Below are positions 1-29,767 of a stretch of DNA of 29,767 nt, one piece after another. This DNA comes from a virus (taxonomy: Duplodnaviria > Heunggongvirae > Uroviricota > Caudoviricetes). Each line of letters begins with the position of its first letter. Position 1 is the first letter of the stretch. The DNA is taken from IMG/VR virus record IMGVR_UViG_2917855067_000004; one strand, 5' to 3'. Both the position numbers and the translations under genes were made by a program. Under the pieces are notes generated by a model that did not search any database, was not told the DNA's origin, and worked only from the letters and a program-made list of their open reading frames with translations.

Positions 1-213
<213 letters not shown>

Positions 214-357: not shown

Positions 358-576
358 TCAAAGCCAAAGTTGTTGTTGCTGGTTTCTGACGGGGTGGGGT
401 GGGGCAGGATCAATAGCACCCGGTTTCACGATAAACCTTGATAGCGTCTCAAAAGTGATAAATGTGCAGCCGCAATTGATGTTCTGGCACTGGTGATAAC
501 GTTCTTTCGTTTCGGTGCTAAGGTATCGGCTAGTGCGAGCATGCGCGGCGTTTTGGCATAACGGGCAGTGCATCAT
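358..576 (-). CDS. ogr: Late-gene transcriptional activator Ogr (C4 zinc-finger)
   Basis: 72 aa, MMHCPLCQNAAHARTSRYLSTETKERYHQCQNINCGCTFITFE...; CxxC...CxxC motif and length match P2 Ogr from memory. Confidence 0.9.
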   Translation of the reverse strand: MMHCPLCQNAAHARTSRYLSTETKERYHQCQNINCGCTFITFETLSRFIVKPGAIDPAPPHPVRNQQQQLWL

Positions 577-651
577 AATTTTTCCCCCTGCTGGCGCGTT
601 TGAGGGAATAATAAACTCTAGGGTTGCATTTGCAAGTTATGATTTGCTTTT

Positions 652-21471: not shown

Positions 21472-21702
21472 TTAACGCCAGCTATCGTCTTCCCAAATCT
21501 CTTGTAATATGCCGCTTAATGTTTCTTTGTCTGCTTCTTTATCGAATCCGATAACCTCTACACCAGTCATTGACCCTTTCTTGACGTTAACTTTTATTGC
21601 AGGAAAAACGCATTGTACTCGATGTGTTATTTCATTCTGAAAAGCATCAATGATCTGTTGCCCTAATTTTTGTTCTTTATCCAACGTGATATTGATTCTC
21701 AT
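21472..21702 (-). CDS. DinI-family protein (likely the C-terminal part of a Tum-like SOS-inducible antirepressor)
   Basis: 76 aa MRINITLDKEQKLGQQIIDAFQNEITHRVQCVFPAIKVNVKKGSMTGVEVIGFDKEADKETLSGILQEIWEDDSWR resembles E. coli DinI (MRIEVTIAK...ILQETWE) from memory. Confidence 0.8.
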   Translation of the reverse strand: MRINITLDKEQKLGQQIIDAFQNEITHRVQCVFPAIKVNVKKGSMTGVEVIGFDKEADKETLSGILQEIWEDDSWR

Positions 21703-21705
21703 AAT

Positions 21706-21888
21706 CTAATCAGCCTTATAAAAATTATCATCTTCGGTTTCGTTATTCTCGCTGTTTGCTAGGTCTGCAATGAGAGTGAGCGCGAGCTTTAAGTCTGATG
21801 GCTTGCAGTTTGCAATCAGAGATACCTCGGCAATAAATTGCACACAAGCCCACTTTTGCTGCGTTCGGCTGAAATGTTCGTCAACCAT
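21706..21888 (-). CDS. Hypothetical 60-aa protein, first gene of the LexA-box operon (possible Tum N-terminal part)
   Basis: ATG at 21886-21888 with AGGAGG 6 nt upstream; ends at a TAG that is in frame with, and one codon before, the DinI-like ATG. Confidence 0.55.
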   Translation of the reverse strand: MVDEHFSRTQQKWACVQFIAEVSLIANCKPSDLKLALTLIADLANSENNETEDDNFYKAD

Positions 21889-25817: not shown

Positions 25818-26327
25818 TCATACCAAACCAAATGTTGCGCCGATGCCGGTCATGGTATCAACCACGCTCGACATTGCCGGGTTAGCCTGTAGACGCGCCT
25901 GTAACGCCAGCGCCGACAGAGACAACATGCGGATGCCTGCATTAACACTCTCAACCATGTTGTGTTTGCGGTCAGAGGTCATACGTTCATTTGATACCGC
26001 ACCGCTCGCCAGTTCGCCGAGTTCACTCATTGCGCGCATCACATAAGACTGCAATTTCTCTTTAGCCAGCTCATTAACTGGCACGCATGGCAGACAATGT
26101 ATCTGCGCCAGAAAGCCATCAACGAGGGTTGAGTCTTCGGTCAGGTCAGTCAGCAGCCACAATTCAGGCGGTGTGAATTGGTGAGGCTGTTCTGGGTTGA
26201 GCTTGTTACGTAACGTTTGAACGTTCATACCCGCACGCTCGGCCAGCTTCGCCATGTTGTGACGCTGCGCAAAAGCCCGGCACGCTTCGTCATAGTGAGG
26301 ATGTTTAGAAATCTGAAAATCAAACAT
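25818..26327 (-). CDS. cII: CII-like transcriptional activator (186 type)
   Basis: Start moved to ATG 26325-26327 with GAGGG 9 nt upstream, giving 169 aa MFDFQISKHPHYDEACRAFAQRHNMAKLAERAGMNVQTLRNKL...; matches 186 CII length and my recollection of its N-terminus. Confidence 0.8.
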   Translation of the reverse strand: MFDFQISKHPHYDEACRAFAQRHNMAKLAERAGMNVQTLRNKLNPEQPHQFTPPELWLLTDLTEDSTLVDGFLAQIHCLPCVPVNELAKEKLQSYVMRAMSELGELASGAVSNERMTSDRKHNMVESVNAGIRMLSLSALALQARLQANPAMSSVVDTMTGIGATFGLV

Positions 26328-26359
26328 GGTTAAATTCCCTCTAACTTGCATAATCAAAT

Positions 26360-26731
26360 TCAGTTAAGAGCGATGCGGTGGTCGATGTAGCGACAATCAA
26401 TCGCTTGCTGGGTTAGTTTGTCGCGCCATGCTTTCACGTTTACGAGGGTGCGGCTTCGTTTTCCAGCCTCTTCCTTGTTGGAAAAGTCTTTAGTTGGAGC
26501 TTTGAGGAGGATTCCCTCATCAAGCCATTGCCAGACCAGCCGCTCGCTTACACCGCGAGTGGCGGCAAAGTCTTTCACTGTCATTGTGTCTGACATAGCG
26601 GAGCGGATCATTGTCTGCAGAGCTGGCAGCATAGCGGTAACGATCGCATCAAACTGAGCCGGATCTAACAGCACAGTTTGATTTTGTGAGTTTTGCGAAT
26701 CATGCGTCGAGATTGATTTTGCATCTGACAT
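26360..26731 (-). CDS. apl: Apl/Cox-like excisionase and transcriptional regulator (start uncertain)
   Basis: Divergent from cI; HTH-like ...MTVKDFAATRGVSERLVWQWLDEGILLKAP...; the 123-aa ORF is longer than 186 Apl (87 aa), so an internal start is possible. Confidence 0.65.
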   Translation of the reverse strand: MSDAKSISTHDSQNSQNQTVLLDPAQFDAIVTAMLPALQTMIRSAMSDTMTVKDFAATRGVSERLVWQWLDEGILLKAPTKDFSNKEEAGKRSRTLVNVKAWRDKLTQQAIDCRYIDHRIALN

Positions 26732-26844
26732 ATCGCATTATCTCCTGTTGTTTGAAATGTTGTGCAGTGGTGTGCATCTTGGTCGATGAACACCAATATA
26801 GATCGCTAAATTTTTGTTGTAAACAAAATTCTTGTTGGTGCTAT

Positions 26845-27690
26845 ATGTCTAAAAATGATGTCAATGCGTCTGCCGCTTTAGAGCGAGTCCTTTCTGCATA
26901 CGGTTTTAAGCAGCAAAAAGAACTAGCTGAAAGGCTTGGTATTCATGCGAACAACGTAAGTAGTTGGCTTGCAAGAAACGTGATCCCAAGCAACGTTTTC
27001 GTTGAGTGCGCTCTTGATACAGGGGCTGACCTGCGATGGCTTGTTAATGGTGAACTTGCAAATACAAAATATGACGAGAGGCAAGTAAATCTCAAAGGTA
27101 AGCAACTCTATGATGAAATCATGGCTAATGGAGGAAGGGCGGTTCTGCGTCGTATTCTCGATGCGTATGGTTTTACTATGCAAAAAGAGTTGGGAGATTT
27201 ATTAGGCATATCCTCTGGTACTATAAGCACTTGGGTCAGACGCGATTTTTTCCCTGGTGATGTGGTTGTAACCTGCGCCCTCGATACAGGCGTATCGTTA
27301 GAATGGTTATCTACGGGAAAAGGCCAGATGCGTAACAGCAAGGATGGTGAGTCAGCTAATTCTTTAACGATTAGAAAATGCCGCCTTGAGGCAGGTGAAC
27401 TCAAGGATATCGGGCGTTGGACTCCTGATGTCTCTATGGTTCCGGCAAACACTGATGATTTAGTCTTTATTGATGGCGTGAGTGCATCTTGGCTTGTTGA
27501 TTGTTCTAACTCAAAGATAGGAAATGGTCGTTGGCTTATTGGTATTGATGGTGCGCTCGATATTTTTGACGTAATCAGATTGCCCGGAGGAAAGGTCAGG
27601 CTATCAAATAAGTCTGTTGAGTTTGAATGTAATCTTTCTGATATCACACCATCAGGTGCCGTTTTCTTTACTTTGGAAAAGCATGTTTAA
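26845..27690 (+). CDS. cI: CI immunity repressor (186 type) with tandemly duplicated N-terminal DNA-binding domain
   Basis: Start placed at ATG 26845 (MSKNDV...); two homologous ~65-aa segments (...LSAYGFKQQKELAERLGI...CALDTGADLRWLVNGE and ...LDAYGFTMQKELGDLLGI...CALDTGVSLEWLSTGKG) followed by a ~125-aa C-terminal domain. Confidence 0.75.
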   Translation: MSKNDVNASAALERVLSAYGFKQQKELAERLGIHANNVSSWLARNVIPSNVFVECALDTGADLRWLVNGELANTKYDERQVNLKGKQLYDEIMANGGRAVLRRILDAYGFTMQKELGDLLGISSGTISTWVRRDFFPGDVVVTCALDTGVSLEWLSTGKGQMRNSKDGESANSLTIRKCRLEAGELKDIGRWTPDVSMVPANTDDLVFIDGVSASWLVDCSNSKIGNGRWLIGIDGALDIFDVIRLPGGKVRLSNKSVEFECNLSDITPSGAVFFTLEKHV

Positions 27691-27699
27691 GGGGCAGTA

Positions 27700-27963
27700 A
27701 TGAAAAAGTTTTTATTTGGAATGGTCTGTATTGCACTTTCTTCCTCAACATTTGCTGCTGAAAAGTTCAAAGAGATTGATAGTAAATCTTTTGGTGGTAA
27801 ATGGCCGCTAACCTTTGAGCATGCAAAGGTATCTTGTGTAAATCGTCACTACGTTTTTGTTTATGATATTGATACTGATGAACGATATCCCCTAAGCGGT
27901 ATGGCTAAAAAACGCCGTCAAATCAGGAAAAATGGAAGGGCGAGATTTAAAAGAAGTGCTTAA
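27700..27963 (+). CDS. Small secreted protein (signal peptide; tentative YebY/DUF2511-like), between cI and int
   Basis: AAGGGG Shine-Dalgarno 5 nt before the ATG; MKKFLFGMVCIALSSSTFA signal peptide; mature part ...GGKWPLTFEHAKVSCVNRHYVFVYDIDTDERYPLSGMA... and a basic tail; AT-rich. Confidence 0.6.
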   Translation: MKKFLFGMVCIALSSSTFAAEKFKEIDSKSFGGKWPLTFEHAKVSCVNRHYVFVYDIDTDERYPLSGMAKKRRQIRKNGRARFKRSA

Positions 27964-29285: not shown

Positions 29286-29767
29286 TTACGGTGCACTAAT
29301 CACCACAGCGACGCGGCGGTTCTCGGCGCGACCCTGTGCGGTCTTGTTACTGGCGATGGGGTATTTTTTCCCTAAGCCTGAGTGGTGAGATTGCTGCGAG
29401 GAATTTGTCCACCTTCTGCCCACGCATCGGCGACGACATTTGCCCGCTTCAGCGATAAAGCTTCGTTGTAACTGTCTTCGCCGTAATTGTCGGTATGTCC
29501 ATCCATACGGGCATGGGTTAAGCCCGTGGAGGTCAGTTTTGCGGCCATGGTCTGGATCTGTTGCTGACTTTCCGGGAGCAGTTTGTAGTCATTTTTAGCA
29601 AACAGAATGGTATCAGATAAGCCCAGCGACCAGTCGCCAGCGGATTCAGTAAAACCATAAGACTGCATAGCGGCGACTTGTTCTGGAGTAAACTTCCCTT
29701 GTGGTGACTGGCAGCCAGTCAGTATCAGTGAAGAGAACACCAGGGGAACTACCAGTTGCTTTATCAT
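29286..29767 (-). pseudogene. yfiB: OmpA-family lipoprotein YfiB, disrupted by a 1-nt deletion (or homopolymer sequencing error) near 29376-29378
   Basis: ORF 29372-29767 gives MIKQLVVPLVFSSLILTGCQSPQGKF...SNLTTQA then stop; shifting one base continues GLGKKYPIASNKTAQGRAENRRVAVVISAP to a TAA at 29286-29288, matching the expected OmpA-like C-terminus. Confidence 0.75.

What the first reader, a model, noticed from the sequence alone, without database searches (positions are those of the whole stretch)
26845..27690. CI repressor carrying two tandem copies of the 186-type N-terminal DNA-binding domain
The 281-aa repressor contains two adjacent ~65-aa segments that align with each other at roughly half identity (AYGF...KEL...LGI...S.W...CALDTG..L.WL..G), followed by one C-terminal domain. 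186 CI is about 192 aa with a single such domain. An intragenic duplication would make a repressor with a built-in pair of DNA-binding modules, which may change operator spacing or immunity specificity. The CI-operated switch region is 26732-26844.
Basis: partly seen in the sequence, partly recalled or inferred. Interest (0 to 1): 0.6.

Follow-up and report, generated by a model that had tools for sequence, protein, structure and literature searches.

The report
Phage repressor with two DNA-binding heads
The prophage's immunity repressor really does carry two copies of the phage-186-type DNA-binding domain, and comparison with relatives suggests the two have split the work: a variable one that sets immunity and an invariant one that reads a conserved DNA site, one copy of which lies inside the repressor gene itself.

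Summary
The ORF at 26845-27690 (+) encodes a 281-aa CI with two Pfam Phage_CI_repr domains (48% identical, E=1e-24) and one 186-type C-terminal domain. Phage 186 CI aligns only to the second domain plus the C-terminal domain. It is not unique: phage PSP3 cI (sequenced 2002), SW9, SEN1, Midge and over 100 Enterobacterales protein clusters share the architecture. At least two other lineages doubled the domain separately. I found no paper that describes it; a 2011 study read the extra length as a longer C-terminal domain.

Both domains are translated and under purifying selection. NTD2 is nearly invariant, recognition helix included. NTD1 is hypervariable and is swapped together with the pR promoter DNA.

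Single-domain relatives that carry the NTD2 helix have the palindrome TTGCA-N2-TGCAA in pR. In the double-domain phages that motif lies:
- over the late-activator promoter (621-638);
- at the apl/cII junction (26343-26360);
- in the codons of the NTD1-NTD2 linker (27053-27070), where synonymous sites are conserved and the motif occurs in two reading frames.

Inferred, untested model: NTD1 reads immunity-specific pR operators, and NTD2 reads family-wide distal and late-gene operators. I rate it a new variant of a known kind.

The parts
26845..27690 (+). cI gene, 281 aa, architecture NTD1-linker-NTD2-linker-CTD
   Evidence: ORF and translation; Pfam finds 2x PF07022 plus PF16452; best PDB match is 186 CI 2FJR
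26866..27051 (+). NTD1 (aa 8-69): the extra, hypervariable HTH domain; recognition helix HANNVSSWLARN
   Evidence: pN/pS is 0.02-0.07 within the same immunity type. DNA identity to Midge and PSP3 falls to 46-68% here
27052..27132 (+). Inter-domain linker (aa 70-96). Residues 72-83 are predicted disordered; a short helix at 85-94 resembles the N-terminus of single-domain relatives
   Evidence: AlphaFold2 pLDDT below 50 at 72-83; alignment of the linker with MQLDELEGGKAVL of single-domain CIs
27053..27070 (.). FL-like operator inside cI: AACTTGCAAATACAAAAT (core 27056-27067 is TTGCAAATACAA, 1 mismatch to TTGCANNTGCAA). It encodes E-L-A-N-T-K
   Evidence: The motif is present with <=1 mismatch in the linker of 38/51 dereplicated double-domain loci, against 0.08 expected, and in two reading frames. 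The Ala72 codon is GCA in 38/39 loci
27133..27318 (+). NTD2 (aa 97-158): the domain that corresponds to the single 186 domain; recognition helix SSGTISTWVRRD is invariant across the family
   Evidence: pN is 0.01-0.11 in every pair compared, with pS 0.75-0.87 in all pairs except SW9
27361..27687 (+). 186-type C-terminal (oligomerisation) domain, aa 173-281
   Evidence: PF16452; Foldseek TM 0.88, rmsd 1.8 A to 2FKD
26795..26823 (-). Putative lytic promoter pR: -35 TTTACA (26823-26818), 17-nt spacer, -10 TATATT (26800-26795)
   Evidence: Promoter scan, 10 of 12 matches; same position as annotated pR in phage 186; hexamers conserved in relatives
26812..26828 (.). Immunity-type-specific palindrome TTTTGTT-GTA-AACAAAA centred on the pR -35; candidate NTD1 operator. 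Overlapping direct repeats AAATTYTTGTTG lie at 26808-26819 and 26826-26837
   Evidence: only perfect copy in the window. TTTTG-N7-CAAAA is shared by SW9, L010 and L032, which have the same NTD1 helix type. It is replaced by other palindromes in other NTD1 types
26713..26741 (+). Putative lysogenic promoter pL, facing pR: -35 TTGATT (26713-26718), 17-nt spacer, -10 CATTAT (26736-26741). It overlaps the apl-like start codon
   Evidence: Read by eye. An equivalent TTGCAW-17-CAWTAT is conserved in divergent loci, and the arrangement matches the 186 annotation
26768..26795 (.). Conserved 28-bp palindrome TGGTGTGCATC-N6-GATGAACACCA between pL and pR; binder unknown (the Apl-like protein is a candidate)
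   Evidence: I12; invariant core across six phages of three immunity types
26360..26731 (-). apl/cox-like gene (123 aa), first gene of the lytic operon
   Evidence: phrog_3554, weak match to Cox-like phrog_575; no Pfam match; annotated as Cox in phage Midge
26343..26360 (.). FR-like site AACTTGCATAATCAAATT between the apl-like stop and the cII start. It contains CATAAT (26349-26354), a possible -10 of the CII-dependent promoter pE
   Evidence: same position as FR/pE in the 186 annotation
25818..26327 (-). cII (169 aa from ATG 26327)
   Evidence: PF06892; start codon read; 510 nt, the same length as in 186 and PSP3
621..638 (.). pB-type operator GGGTTGCATTTGCAAGTT (perfect core at 624-635). It overlaps the -35 (TTGCAA, 635-630) of a TTGCAA-16-TATTAT promoter for the ogr/pag-like late activator gene
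   Evidence: The same AACTTGCAAATGCAA lies at this promoter in PSP3, SW9, Midge and SEN1, whatever the NTD1 type
358..576 (-). ogr/pag/B-like zinc-finger late activator gene (72 aa)
   Evidence: phrog_603; PSP3 Pag occupies the same position

Best explanation
This is the immunity repressor of a complete 186/PSP3-type (Eganvirus-like) prophage. It is a 186-type CI: an HTH domain plus a C-terminal domain of the kind that forms the 14-subunit wheel in 186. A second, paralogous HTH domain (NTD1) is attached to its N-terminus through a flexible linker.

Shown by sequence: both domains are translated and constrained, NTD2 is nearly invariant across the family, and NTD1 is hypervariable and exchanged as one cassette with the pR -10/-35 DNA.

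Inferred: the two heads have divided the work that the single HTH of 186 CI does alone.
- NTD1 dimers read immunity-specific palindromes over pR (here TTTTGTT-GTA-AACAAAA at 26812-26828) and so set immunity.
- NTD2 dimers read a family-wide operator, TTGCA-N2-TGCAA. It lies over the -35 of the late-activator promoter (621-638), at the apl/cII junction (26343-26360, an FR/pE equivalent) and inside the NTD1-NTD2 linker codons of cI (27053-27070, an FL equivalent).

By analogy with 186, the distal sites would loop to a repressor oligomer at pR, and the promoter site would keep late genes off. The linker-encoded operator probably descends from the pR operator of a single-domain ancestor. It would have been drawn into the reading frame when the upstream NTD was added.
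For: Architecture.

Translation of NTD1: 18 synonymous against 1 non-synonymous difference with SW9.

Asymmetry between the domains: the NTD2 helix is invariant down to 40% overall identity, whereas the NTD1 helix varies. NTD2 pN is 0.01-0.11 in every pair compared, with pS 0.75-0.87 in all pairs except SW9.

Cassette exchange: window against Midge is 86-98% identical over 25850-26800, drops to 46-64% over 26800-27150, then returns to 74-82% in NTD2 (alignment). L032 shares the window's NTD1 type and the TTTTG-N7-CAAAA palindrome but has a different pL-side region. NTD1 identity tracks pR-proximal DNA (rho 0.33) and not pL-side DNA (0.08). NTD2 and the C-terminal domain show the reverse pattern.

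NTD2 motif: 14 single-domain relatives with the NTD2 helix carry AACTTGCATTTGCAAGTT in the pR spacer.

FL site: the same core occurs in the linker of 38/51 double-domain loci against 0.08 expected, in two reading frames. The Ala72 codon is GCA in 38/39 loci, against 27-69% for the commonest third base at 49 other conserved four-fold codons.

Late-activator promoter: the motif sits over its -35 in five phages of three immunity types.

FR site: the motif occurs at the position equivalent to FR in 186.

Phage 186 comparison: its FL and FR sites (ATTCAC-N5-GTGAAT) sit at the same two kinds of position, with FL also in linker codons. This fits its different recognition helix.

Spacing: operator to the GG[KR]AVL codon is 77 nt in four of five single-domain genes and in five of six double-domain genes.
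Against: Nothing here is experimental, and no binding has been shown for either domain.

NTD1 and the pR DNA are physically adjacent, so co-inheritance alone could produce their co-variation. The k-mer correlation is modest (rho 0.33).

I assigned the pR operators by eye, and they are heterogeneous. Some types show direct repeats rather than palindromes. Some (L009, the Serratia types L033 and L045) have NTD2-like TTGCA/TGCAA sequences at pR, which blurs a clean split.

In this window the FL core has one mismatch and the FR core two. The count of the core motif in the whole window (3, against 2.07 expected) is not significant on its own. The argument rests on positions and on conservation in relatives.

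NTD2's invariance could instead reflect a protein partner such as an antirepressor.

The AlphaFold2 model has pTM 0.39 and says nothing about how the domains are arranged. Wheel assembly is assumed from fold similarity only.
Confidence: 0.6

Rival explanations
1. Only NTD2 binds operators, as the single domain of 186 CI does. NTD1 is an accessory module, for example a sensor or decoy for an antirepressor, or a steric modulator. Its variability would reflect an arms race with anti-immunity proteins rather than operator specificity.
For: NTD2 plus the C-terminal domain is a complete 186-like CI. NTD2 matches a conserved DNA motif. A DinI-like gene with an upstream small ORF, possibly a split Tum-type antirepressor, is present.
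Against: The pR region carries type-specific palindromes, and in the window's own type (window, SW9, L010, L032) no NTD2-type motif. With an invariant NTD2 helix, all these phages would then share immunity and their pR operators should be conserved; they are not. NTD1 keeps the HTH fold and the family's conserved core residues (Y19, W41, R44, C55, T59, W65).
Confidence: 0.12
2. Only NTD1 binds DNA. NTD2 is a conserved structural spacer or protein-interaction domain. The conserved TTGCA-N2-TGCAA sites would be bound by something else, or would be conserved for promoter or other reasons.
For: TTGCAA doubles as a -35 hexamer at the late-activator promoter and resembles the pL -35. No binding data exist.
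Against: The full palindrome, not just a hexamer, is conserved. In the linker it is followed by no -10 element and is kept at synonymous sites and in two reading frames. Single-domain relatives whose only HTH has the NTD2 helix place the same palindrome in their pR spacer, where a repressor must act. NTD2's recognition helix is the most conserved stretch of the protein.
Confidence: 0.1
3. The two domains of one chain work together at every operator, each contacting an adjacent sub-site of a composite operator (as in POU or paired domains), rather than serving different operators.
For: In the Serratia-type loci a type-specific palindrome (ATCGCAAAATGCGA) and an NTD2-like site (CTTGTAAATGCAAAT) lie side by side at pR. 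The flexible linker would allow it.
Against: At the late-activator promoter the sequence flanking the NTD2 motif is the same in three immunity types, so there is no type-specific sub-site there. The window's pR shows no NTD2-type half-site.
Confidence: 0.15

Closest known systems
Phage 186 CI repressor (PDB 2FJR and 2FKD; Dodd, Egan, Shearwin and colleagues)
   Same: Same two domain families (PF07022 and PF16452). The C-terminal domain has the same fold (TM 0.88). Gene order int-cI / apl-cII is the same, as are the facing pR/pL promoters. Operator-like sites sit inside cI, at the apl/cII junction and at the late-activator promoter. PMC3675496 describes the 14-subunit wheel, three pR operators and the distal FL/FR sites that loop to pR.
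   Different: 186 CI has one N-domain (192 aa), and its single HTH is reported to bind two distinct recognition sequences (Shearwin et al. 2002, cited in PMC3675496). Here there are two N-domains, one invariant and one variable. The operator sequences differ (TTGCA-N2-TGCAA against ATTCAC-N5-GTGAAT). The site inside the gene lies in the NTD1-NTD2 linker rather than the NTD-CTD linker.
Salmonella phage PSP3 CI (AAN08403.1) and the CI proteins of SW9, SI22, SEN1, Midge and RCIP0057
   Same: Same double-NTD architecture, 67-93% identical, with the same neighbouring genes and the same conserved sites. The window's protein is a new allele of this group.
   Different: NTD1 and the pR DNA belong to different immunity types. 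These proteins are annotated only as 'CI' or 'repressor'. The one comparative paper I found attributes the extra length of PSP3 CI to a longer C-terminal domain (PMC3448106).
Single-domain CI of Rahnella/Ewingella prophages (196 aa; loci L071-L087)
   Same: Their only N-domain is up to 84% identical to NTD2 of the double-domain proteins (P0133; 51% identical to the window's protein overall) and has the same recognition helix. Their N-terminus resembles the end of the linker. Their pR operator is the motif found at the distal sites here.
   Different: They have no NTD1, and the motif sits in the pR spacer rather than at distal sites.
Tandem-HTH XRE-type phage regulators (e.g. phiCDKH01_17 of a Clostridioides difficile phage, PMC11172241) and eukaryotic bipartite HTH proteins (POU, paired; from general knowledge)
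   Same: Two HTH modules on one polypeptide.
   Different: These are unrelated families with no 186-type C-terminal domain. In POU and paired proteins the two modules read adjacent sub-sites of one element, whereas here the evidence favours separate operators.

Membership tests
186-type CI immunity repressor | N-terminal Phage_CI_repr (PF07022) HTH domain | tested here: met
   E=8.4e-49, two copies
186-type CI immunity repressor | C-terminal Phage_CI_C (PF16452) domain with the 186 CI C-terminal fold | tested here: met
   E=6.6e-19; Foldseek TM 0.88, rmsd 1.8 A to 2FKD
186-type CI immunity repressor | One N-domain per chain (about 190 aa), as in 186 CI | tested here: not met
   Two N-domains, 281 aa. 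Among the best 150 family representatives, 72 have one N-domain plus the C-terminal domain and 12 have two plus it
186-type CI immunity repressor | [quoted passage not shown] | tested here: met
186-type CI immunity repressor | Face-to-face pR and pL promoters with operators over pR | tested here: inconclusive
   Consensus hexamers lie at the positions expected from 186, with a palindrome on the pR -35. There are no transcript or binding data
186-type CI immunity repressor | Distal operators inside cI (FL) and at the apl/cII junction (FR), and an operator at the late-activator promoter | tested here: met
   Met at the sequence level only: conserved motif at all three positions
186-type CI immunity repressor | Assembly into a wheel of seven dimers | not testable with these tools
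   Only the fold of the monomer's C-terminal domain could be compared
186-type CI immunity repressor | Induction through a LexA-controlled Tum antirepressor | not tested
   A DinI-like ORF (21472-21702) and an adjacent 60-aa ORF (phrog_1993) are present. No LexA box was sought
P2-type C repressor | About 100-aa single-domain protein that binds direct repeats | tested here: not met
   281 aa, different Pfam families
LexA / lambda CI self-cleaving repressors | S24 peptidase C-terminal domain with a Ser-Lys dyad and an Ala-Gly cleavage site | not tested
   Only distant fold resemblance (Foldseek E about 1e-4 to LexA); no Pfam S24 match

The most novel reading that the evidence does not exclude
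One repressor chain carries two paralogous HTH heads that have sub-functionalised. A fast-evolving head, swapped as a cassette with pR, sets immunity. A frozen head reads a family-wide operator that controls the late-activator promoter and the looping sites. One of those operators is written in the codons of the disordered linker between the heads. That operator would be a fossil of the ancestral gene's leader, made coding when the extra head was added, and kept by selection on the DNA rather than on the peptide. The same kind of doubling arose at least three times in the family.
Probability: 0.45. Interest if true: 0.75.

Novelty: new variant of a known kind. Interest (0 to 1): 0.62.

Why it matters
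Phage 186 CI is a textbook alternative to the lambda switch. A long-noted oddity is that its single HTH reads two different operator sequences. A natural relative that carries two heads offers several things.
- It is a direct test of how operator classes are partitioned.
- It suggests how immunity can change by swapping a cassette of about 340 bp (pR operators plus NTD1) while late-gene control, looping sites and oligomerisation stay fixed.
- It is a clear example of a protein-coding linker constrained by a DNA-binding site embedded in it.

The family is common in Klebsiella, Enterobacter, Salmonella and E. coli prophages, so the rules would also help to predict superinfection immunity groups from sequence.

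Tried and rejected
1. I first took the TTGCA near the apl-like start codon, conserved in divergent loci, for an NTD2 half-site. Its fixed 17-nt distance to a CAWTAT hexamer shows it is the pL -35.
2. I first wrote the motif as AACTTG-N6-CAAGTT. The conserved part turned out to be the inner TTGCA-N2-TGCAA.
3. I tested whether the linker motif could be an internal promoter for a short CI, or whether Met93 could be an internal start. There is no -10 at a suitable distance, and the Met is not conserved.
4. Counting the core motif in the window alone is not informative: 3 matches against 2.07 expected.
5. The type-specific palindrome and the direct repeat have no other copies in the window.
6. I could not retrieve the primary papers that define the A-type and B-type operators of 186. 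From memory I had the late-promoter sites as B-type; PMC3675496 says they are A-type. I therefore draw no A/B equivalence.
7. A search for an att core repeat between the two prophage ends found no exact repeat of 12 nt or more.
8. AlphaFold2 gave no usable inter-domain geometry (pTM 0.39).
9. Two hits with many matched stretches (P0221, P0240) are unrelated multi-HTH_3 proteins, not CI.

Full report
**What is there.** The window is a complete P2/186-like prophage lying between host rplS (1-213) and yfiB (29372-29767). Near its right end the gene order is cII (25818-26327, minus strand), an apl/cox-like gene (26360-26731, minus strand), cI (26845-27690, plus strand), a DUF2511 gene and int. This is the order found in phages 186 and PSP3.

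The cI product is 281 aa. Pfam finds two Phage_CI_repr domains and one Phage_CI_C domain. The two N-domains are 48% identical over 71 residues, E=1e-24. Phage 186 CI (2FJR) aligns only with residues 100-273, so NTD1 is the addition. AlphaFold2 gives three folded domains joined by low-confidence linkers at 72-83 and 161-172, with pTM 0.39. The C-terminal domain superposes on the 186 C-terminal domain with TM 0.88.

**Is NTD1 translated?** Yes. Between the window and SW9, NTD1 has 18 synonymous and 1 non-synonymous differences (pN/pS 0.02). Against L010 the ratio is 0.07. The internal Met93 is not conserved.

**How common is it?**
- Phage PSP3 cI (286 aa, deposited 2002), SW9, SI22, SEN1, Midge and RCIP0057 have the same architecture.
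- All of the best 120 of 1017 homologues are 267-287 aa and come from Klebsiella, Enterobacter, Salmonella, E. coli, Kosakonia and others.
- Among the best 150 representatives at 50% identity, 12 clusters have two N-domains plus the C-terminal domain and 72 have one plus it.
- A scan of genomes returned 63 double-domain and 14 single-domain loci.
- Two further lineages also have two N-domains plus the C-terminal domain: Klebsiella phage Kp4860-7 with P0138, and P0180/P0191/P0195. In two of their members (P0138, P0180) the two N-domains of one protein resemble each other (64% and 69%) more than they resemble the window's type. This points to separate duplications.
- I found no paper describing the doubling. 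A 2011 comparative study says PSP3 CI has 'a longer C-terminal domain' (PMC3448106).

**The two domains behave differently.** In an alignment reaching down to 40% identity, NTD2 is the most conserved part of the protein. Its recognition helix (SSGTISTWVRR) is essentially invariant, whereas the NTD1 helix differs between phages. NTD2 has pN 0.04-0.11 where pS is 0.75-0.87. NTD1 reaches pN 0.19-0.31 between immunity types.

At the DNA level the window is 86-98% identical to Midge over 25850-26800. Identity falls to 46-64% over 26800-27150 and recovers to 74-82% in NTD2. The break falls between the pR -10 and a conserved palindrome. NTD1 and the pR -10/-35 DNA therefore form one exchangeable cassette. 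L032 shares the window's NTD1 type and the palindrome TTTTG-N7-CAAAA on the pR -35, yet it has a different pL-side region. NTD1 identity correlates with pR-proximal DNA (rho 0.33) and not with pL-side DNA (0.08). NTD2 and the C-terminal domain show the reverse.

**A conserved operator that matches NTD2.** Fourteen single-domain relatives (196 aa, Rahnella and Ewingella) carry the NTD2 helix. They have one palindrome, AACTTGCATTTGCAAGTT, in the spacer of their pR. Its core, TTGCA-N2-TGCAA, recurs in the double-domain phages at three fixed places.

1. *Over the -35 of the promoter of the ogr/pag-like late activator.* In the window this is 621-638, with a perfect core. It is also present in PSP3, SW9, Midge and SEN1, whatever the NTD1 type.
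2. *At the apl/cII junction.* In the window this is 26343-26360. It is the position of FR and pE in 186.
3. *Inside cI, in the codons of the NTD1-NTD2 linker.* In the window this is 27053-27070, with one mismatch in the core.

The third site is present with at most one mismatch in 38 of 51 dereplicated loci (17 perfect), against 0.08 expected from the background rate in the same loci. It is encoded in two reading frames: E-L/F-A-N-A-N in 32 loci and N-S-H-L-Q in 6. The Ala72 codon is GCA in 38 of 39 loci. At 49 other conserved four-fold codons the commonest third base reaches only 27-69%. The peptide it encodes is predicted to be disordered. The DNA, not the peptide, is what is conserved.

Phage 186 has the same layout with a different sequence. 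Its FL and FR sites are ATTCAC-N5-GTGAAT, and FL lies in the NTD-CTD linker codons.

**Origin of the linker.** The end of the linker (KGKxLYDEIMxxGGKxVL) resembles the N-terminus of the single-domain proteins (MQLDELEGGKAVL). The distance from the operator to the GG[KR]AVL codon is 77 nt in four of five single-domain genes (pR operator) and in five of six double-domain genes (linker operator). This fits a history in which an upstream N-domain was joined in frame to a complete single-domain gene, so that its operator and leader became coding sequence. Whether that was a tandem duplication or a fusion between two phages cannot be decided. NTD2 is 82-93% identical to single domains, whereas NTD1 is about 50% identical to everything else.

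**Most likely mechanism (inferred).**
- The protein oligomerises through its 186-type C-terminal domain.
- NTD1 reads the immunity-specific operators over pR. In the window pR has -35 at 26823-18 and -10 at 26800-795, with the palindrome at 26812-26828.
- NTD2 reads the family-wide sites at the late-activator promoter, FL and FR.
- In 186, the equivalent sites assist pR repression and activate pL by looping, and CI binds the late-activator (B gene) promoter pB with high affinity (PMC3675496).

I put this at about 0.6. The rivals are: NTD2 alone binds DNA, NTD1 alone binds DNA, or the two heads act jointly at every operator. Their evidence is set out in the Rival explanations section.

Weak points of the model:
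- There are no binding data.
- I assigned the pR operators by eye, and they are heterogeneous.
- Some types have NTD2-like sequences at pR.
- NTD1 and pR are physically linked, so co-inheritance could explain their co-variation.
- The window's own FL and FR copies are imperfect.

**Verdict.** It belongs to a known repressor family and is already present in sequenced phages, but as far as I could find its architecture is undescribed. It shows a clear signature of two DNA-binding heads with different roles and an operator embedded in coding sequence. I rate it a new variant of a known kind, of moderate to high interest.

Noticed in passing
window 1-213 and 29372-29767: The window holds a whole prophage of about 29 kb between host rplS (ribosomal protein L19, 3' end) and yfiB. 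The yfiB side matches all 5426 complete E. coli genomes, but the best match to the prophage's regulatory region there is only 83-86% identical. I found no exact att repeat of 12 nt or more between the two ends.
   Followed up: partly
window 21472-21702 (-) and 21706-21888 (-): A DinI-like ORF (phrog_189, matching profile positions 72-148 of 151) lies directly downstream of a 60-aa ORF of unknown function (phrog_1993). Together they may be a split form of a Tum-type antirepressor. I did not look for a LexA box.
   Followed up: partly
window 26768-26795: A 28-bp palindrome, TGGTGTGCATC-N6-GATGAACACCA, lies between the putative pL and pR start sites. Its core is identical in six phages of three immunity types. 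The binder is unknown; the Apl/Cox-like protein is a candidate.
   Followed up: partly
window 26801-26804: A GATC (Dam site) immediately upstream of the pR -10 is conserved in nearly all double-domain loci, whatever the immunity type (TAGATCG). Methylation-dependent control or a shared half-site is possible.
   Followed up: no
window 27700-27963: The DUF2511 gene between cI and int encodes 87 aa here, against 112 aa (339 nt) in PSP3, SW9, SEN1 and Midge. Identity to those phages drops at both ends of the gene. It may be truncated or frameshifted.
   Followed up: no
L006 (Klebsiella phage Kp4860-7) 1474-2330; pR region about 1380-1470; linker about 1755-1805: This is an independently doubled CI whose own N-domains are 62% identical, joined by a linker of about 45 aa. 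GTTCAC/TTCAC half-sites, like ATTCAC of 186, occur 20 nt apart at pR. They occur again at 20-24-nt spacing inside the linker codons. The linker may therefore also derive from an operator array. The counts are small (4 GTTCAC in 3.9 kb).
   Followed up: partly
window 26719-26730: TTGCATCTGACA (2 mismatches to the NTD2-type core) lies in the pL spacer over the apl-like start codon. It is conserved in PSP3, SW9, SEN1, Midge and RCIP0057. It could be a weak autoregulatory site, or it could be conserved only because it is coding and promoter sequence.
   Followed up: no
proteins P0221 (525 aa) and P0240 (1170 aa): These two metagenomic proteins have 7 and 8 tandem HTH_3 domains. They matched the query only through the HTH and are not CI relatives.
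   Followed up: partly
window 26360-26731 (-): The apl/cox-like protein is 123 aa and has no Pfam match. It belongs to phrog_3554, with only a weak Cox-like match. The 2011 paper (PMC3448106) called its PSP3 counterpart a singleton. It co-occurs with the double-domain CI in many, but not all, loci.
   Followed up: partly
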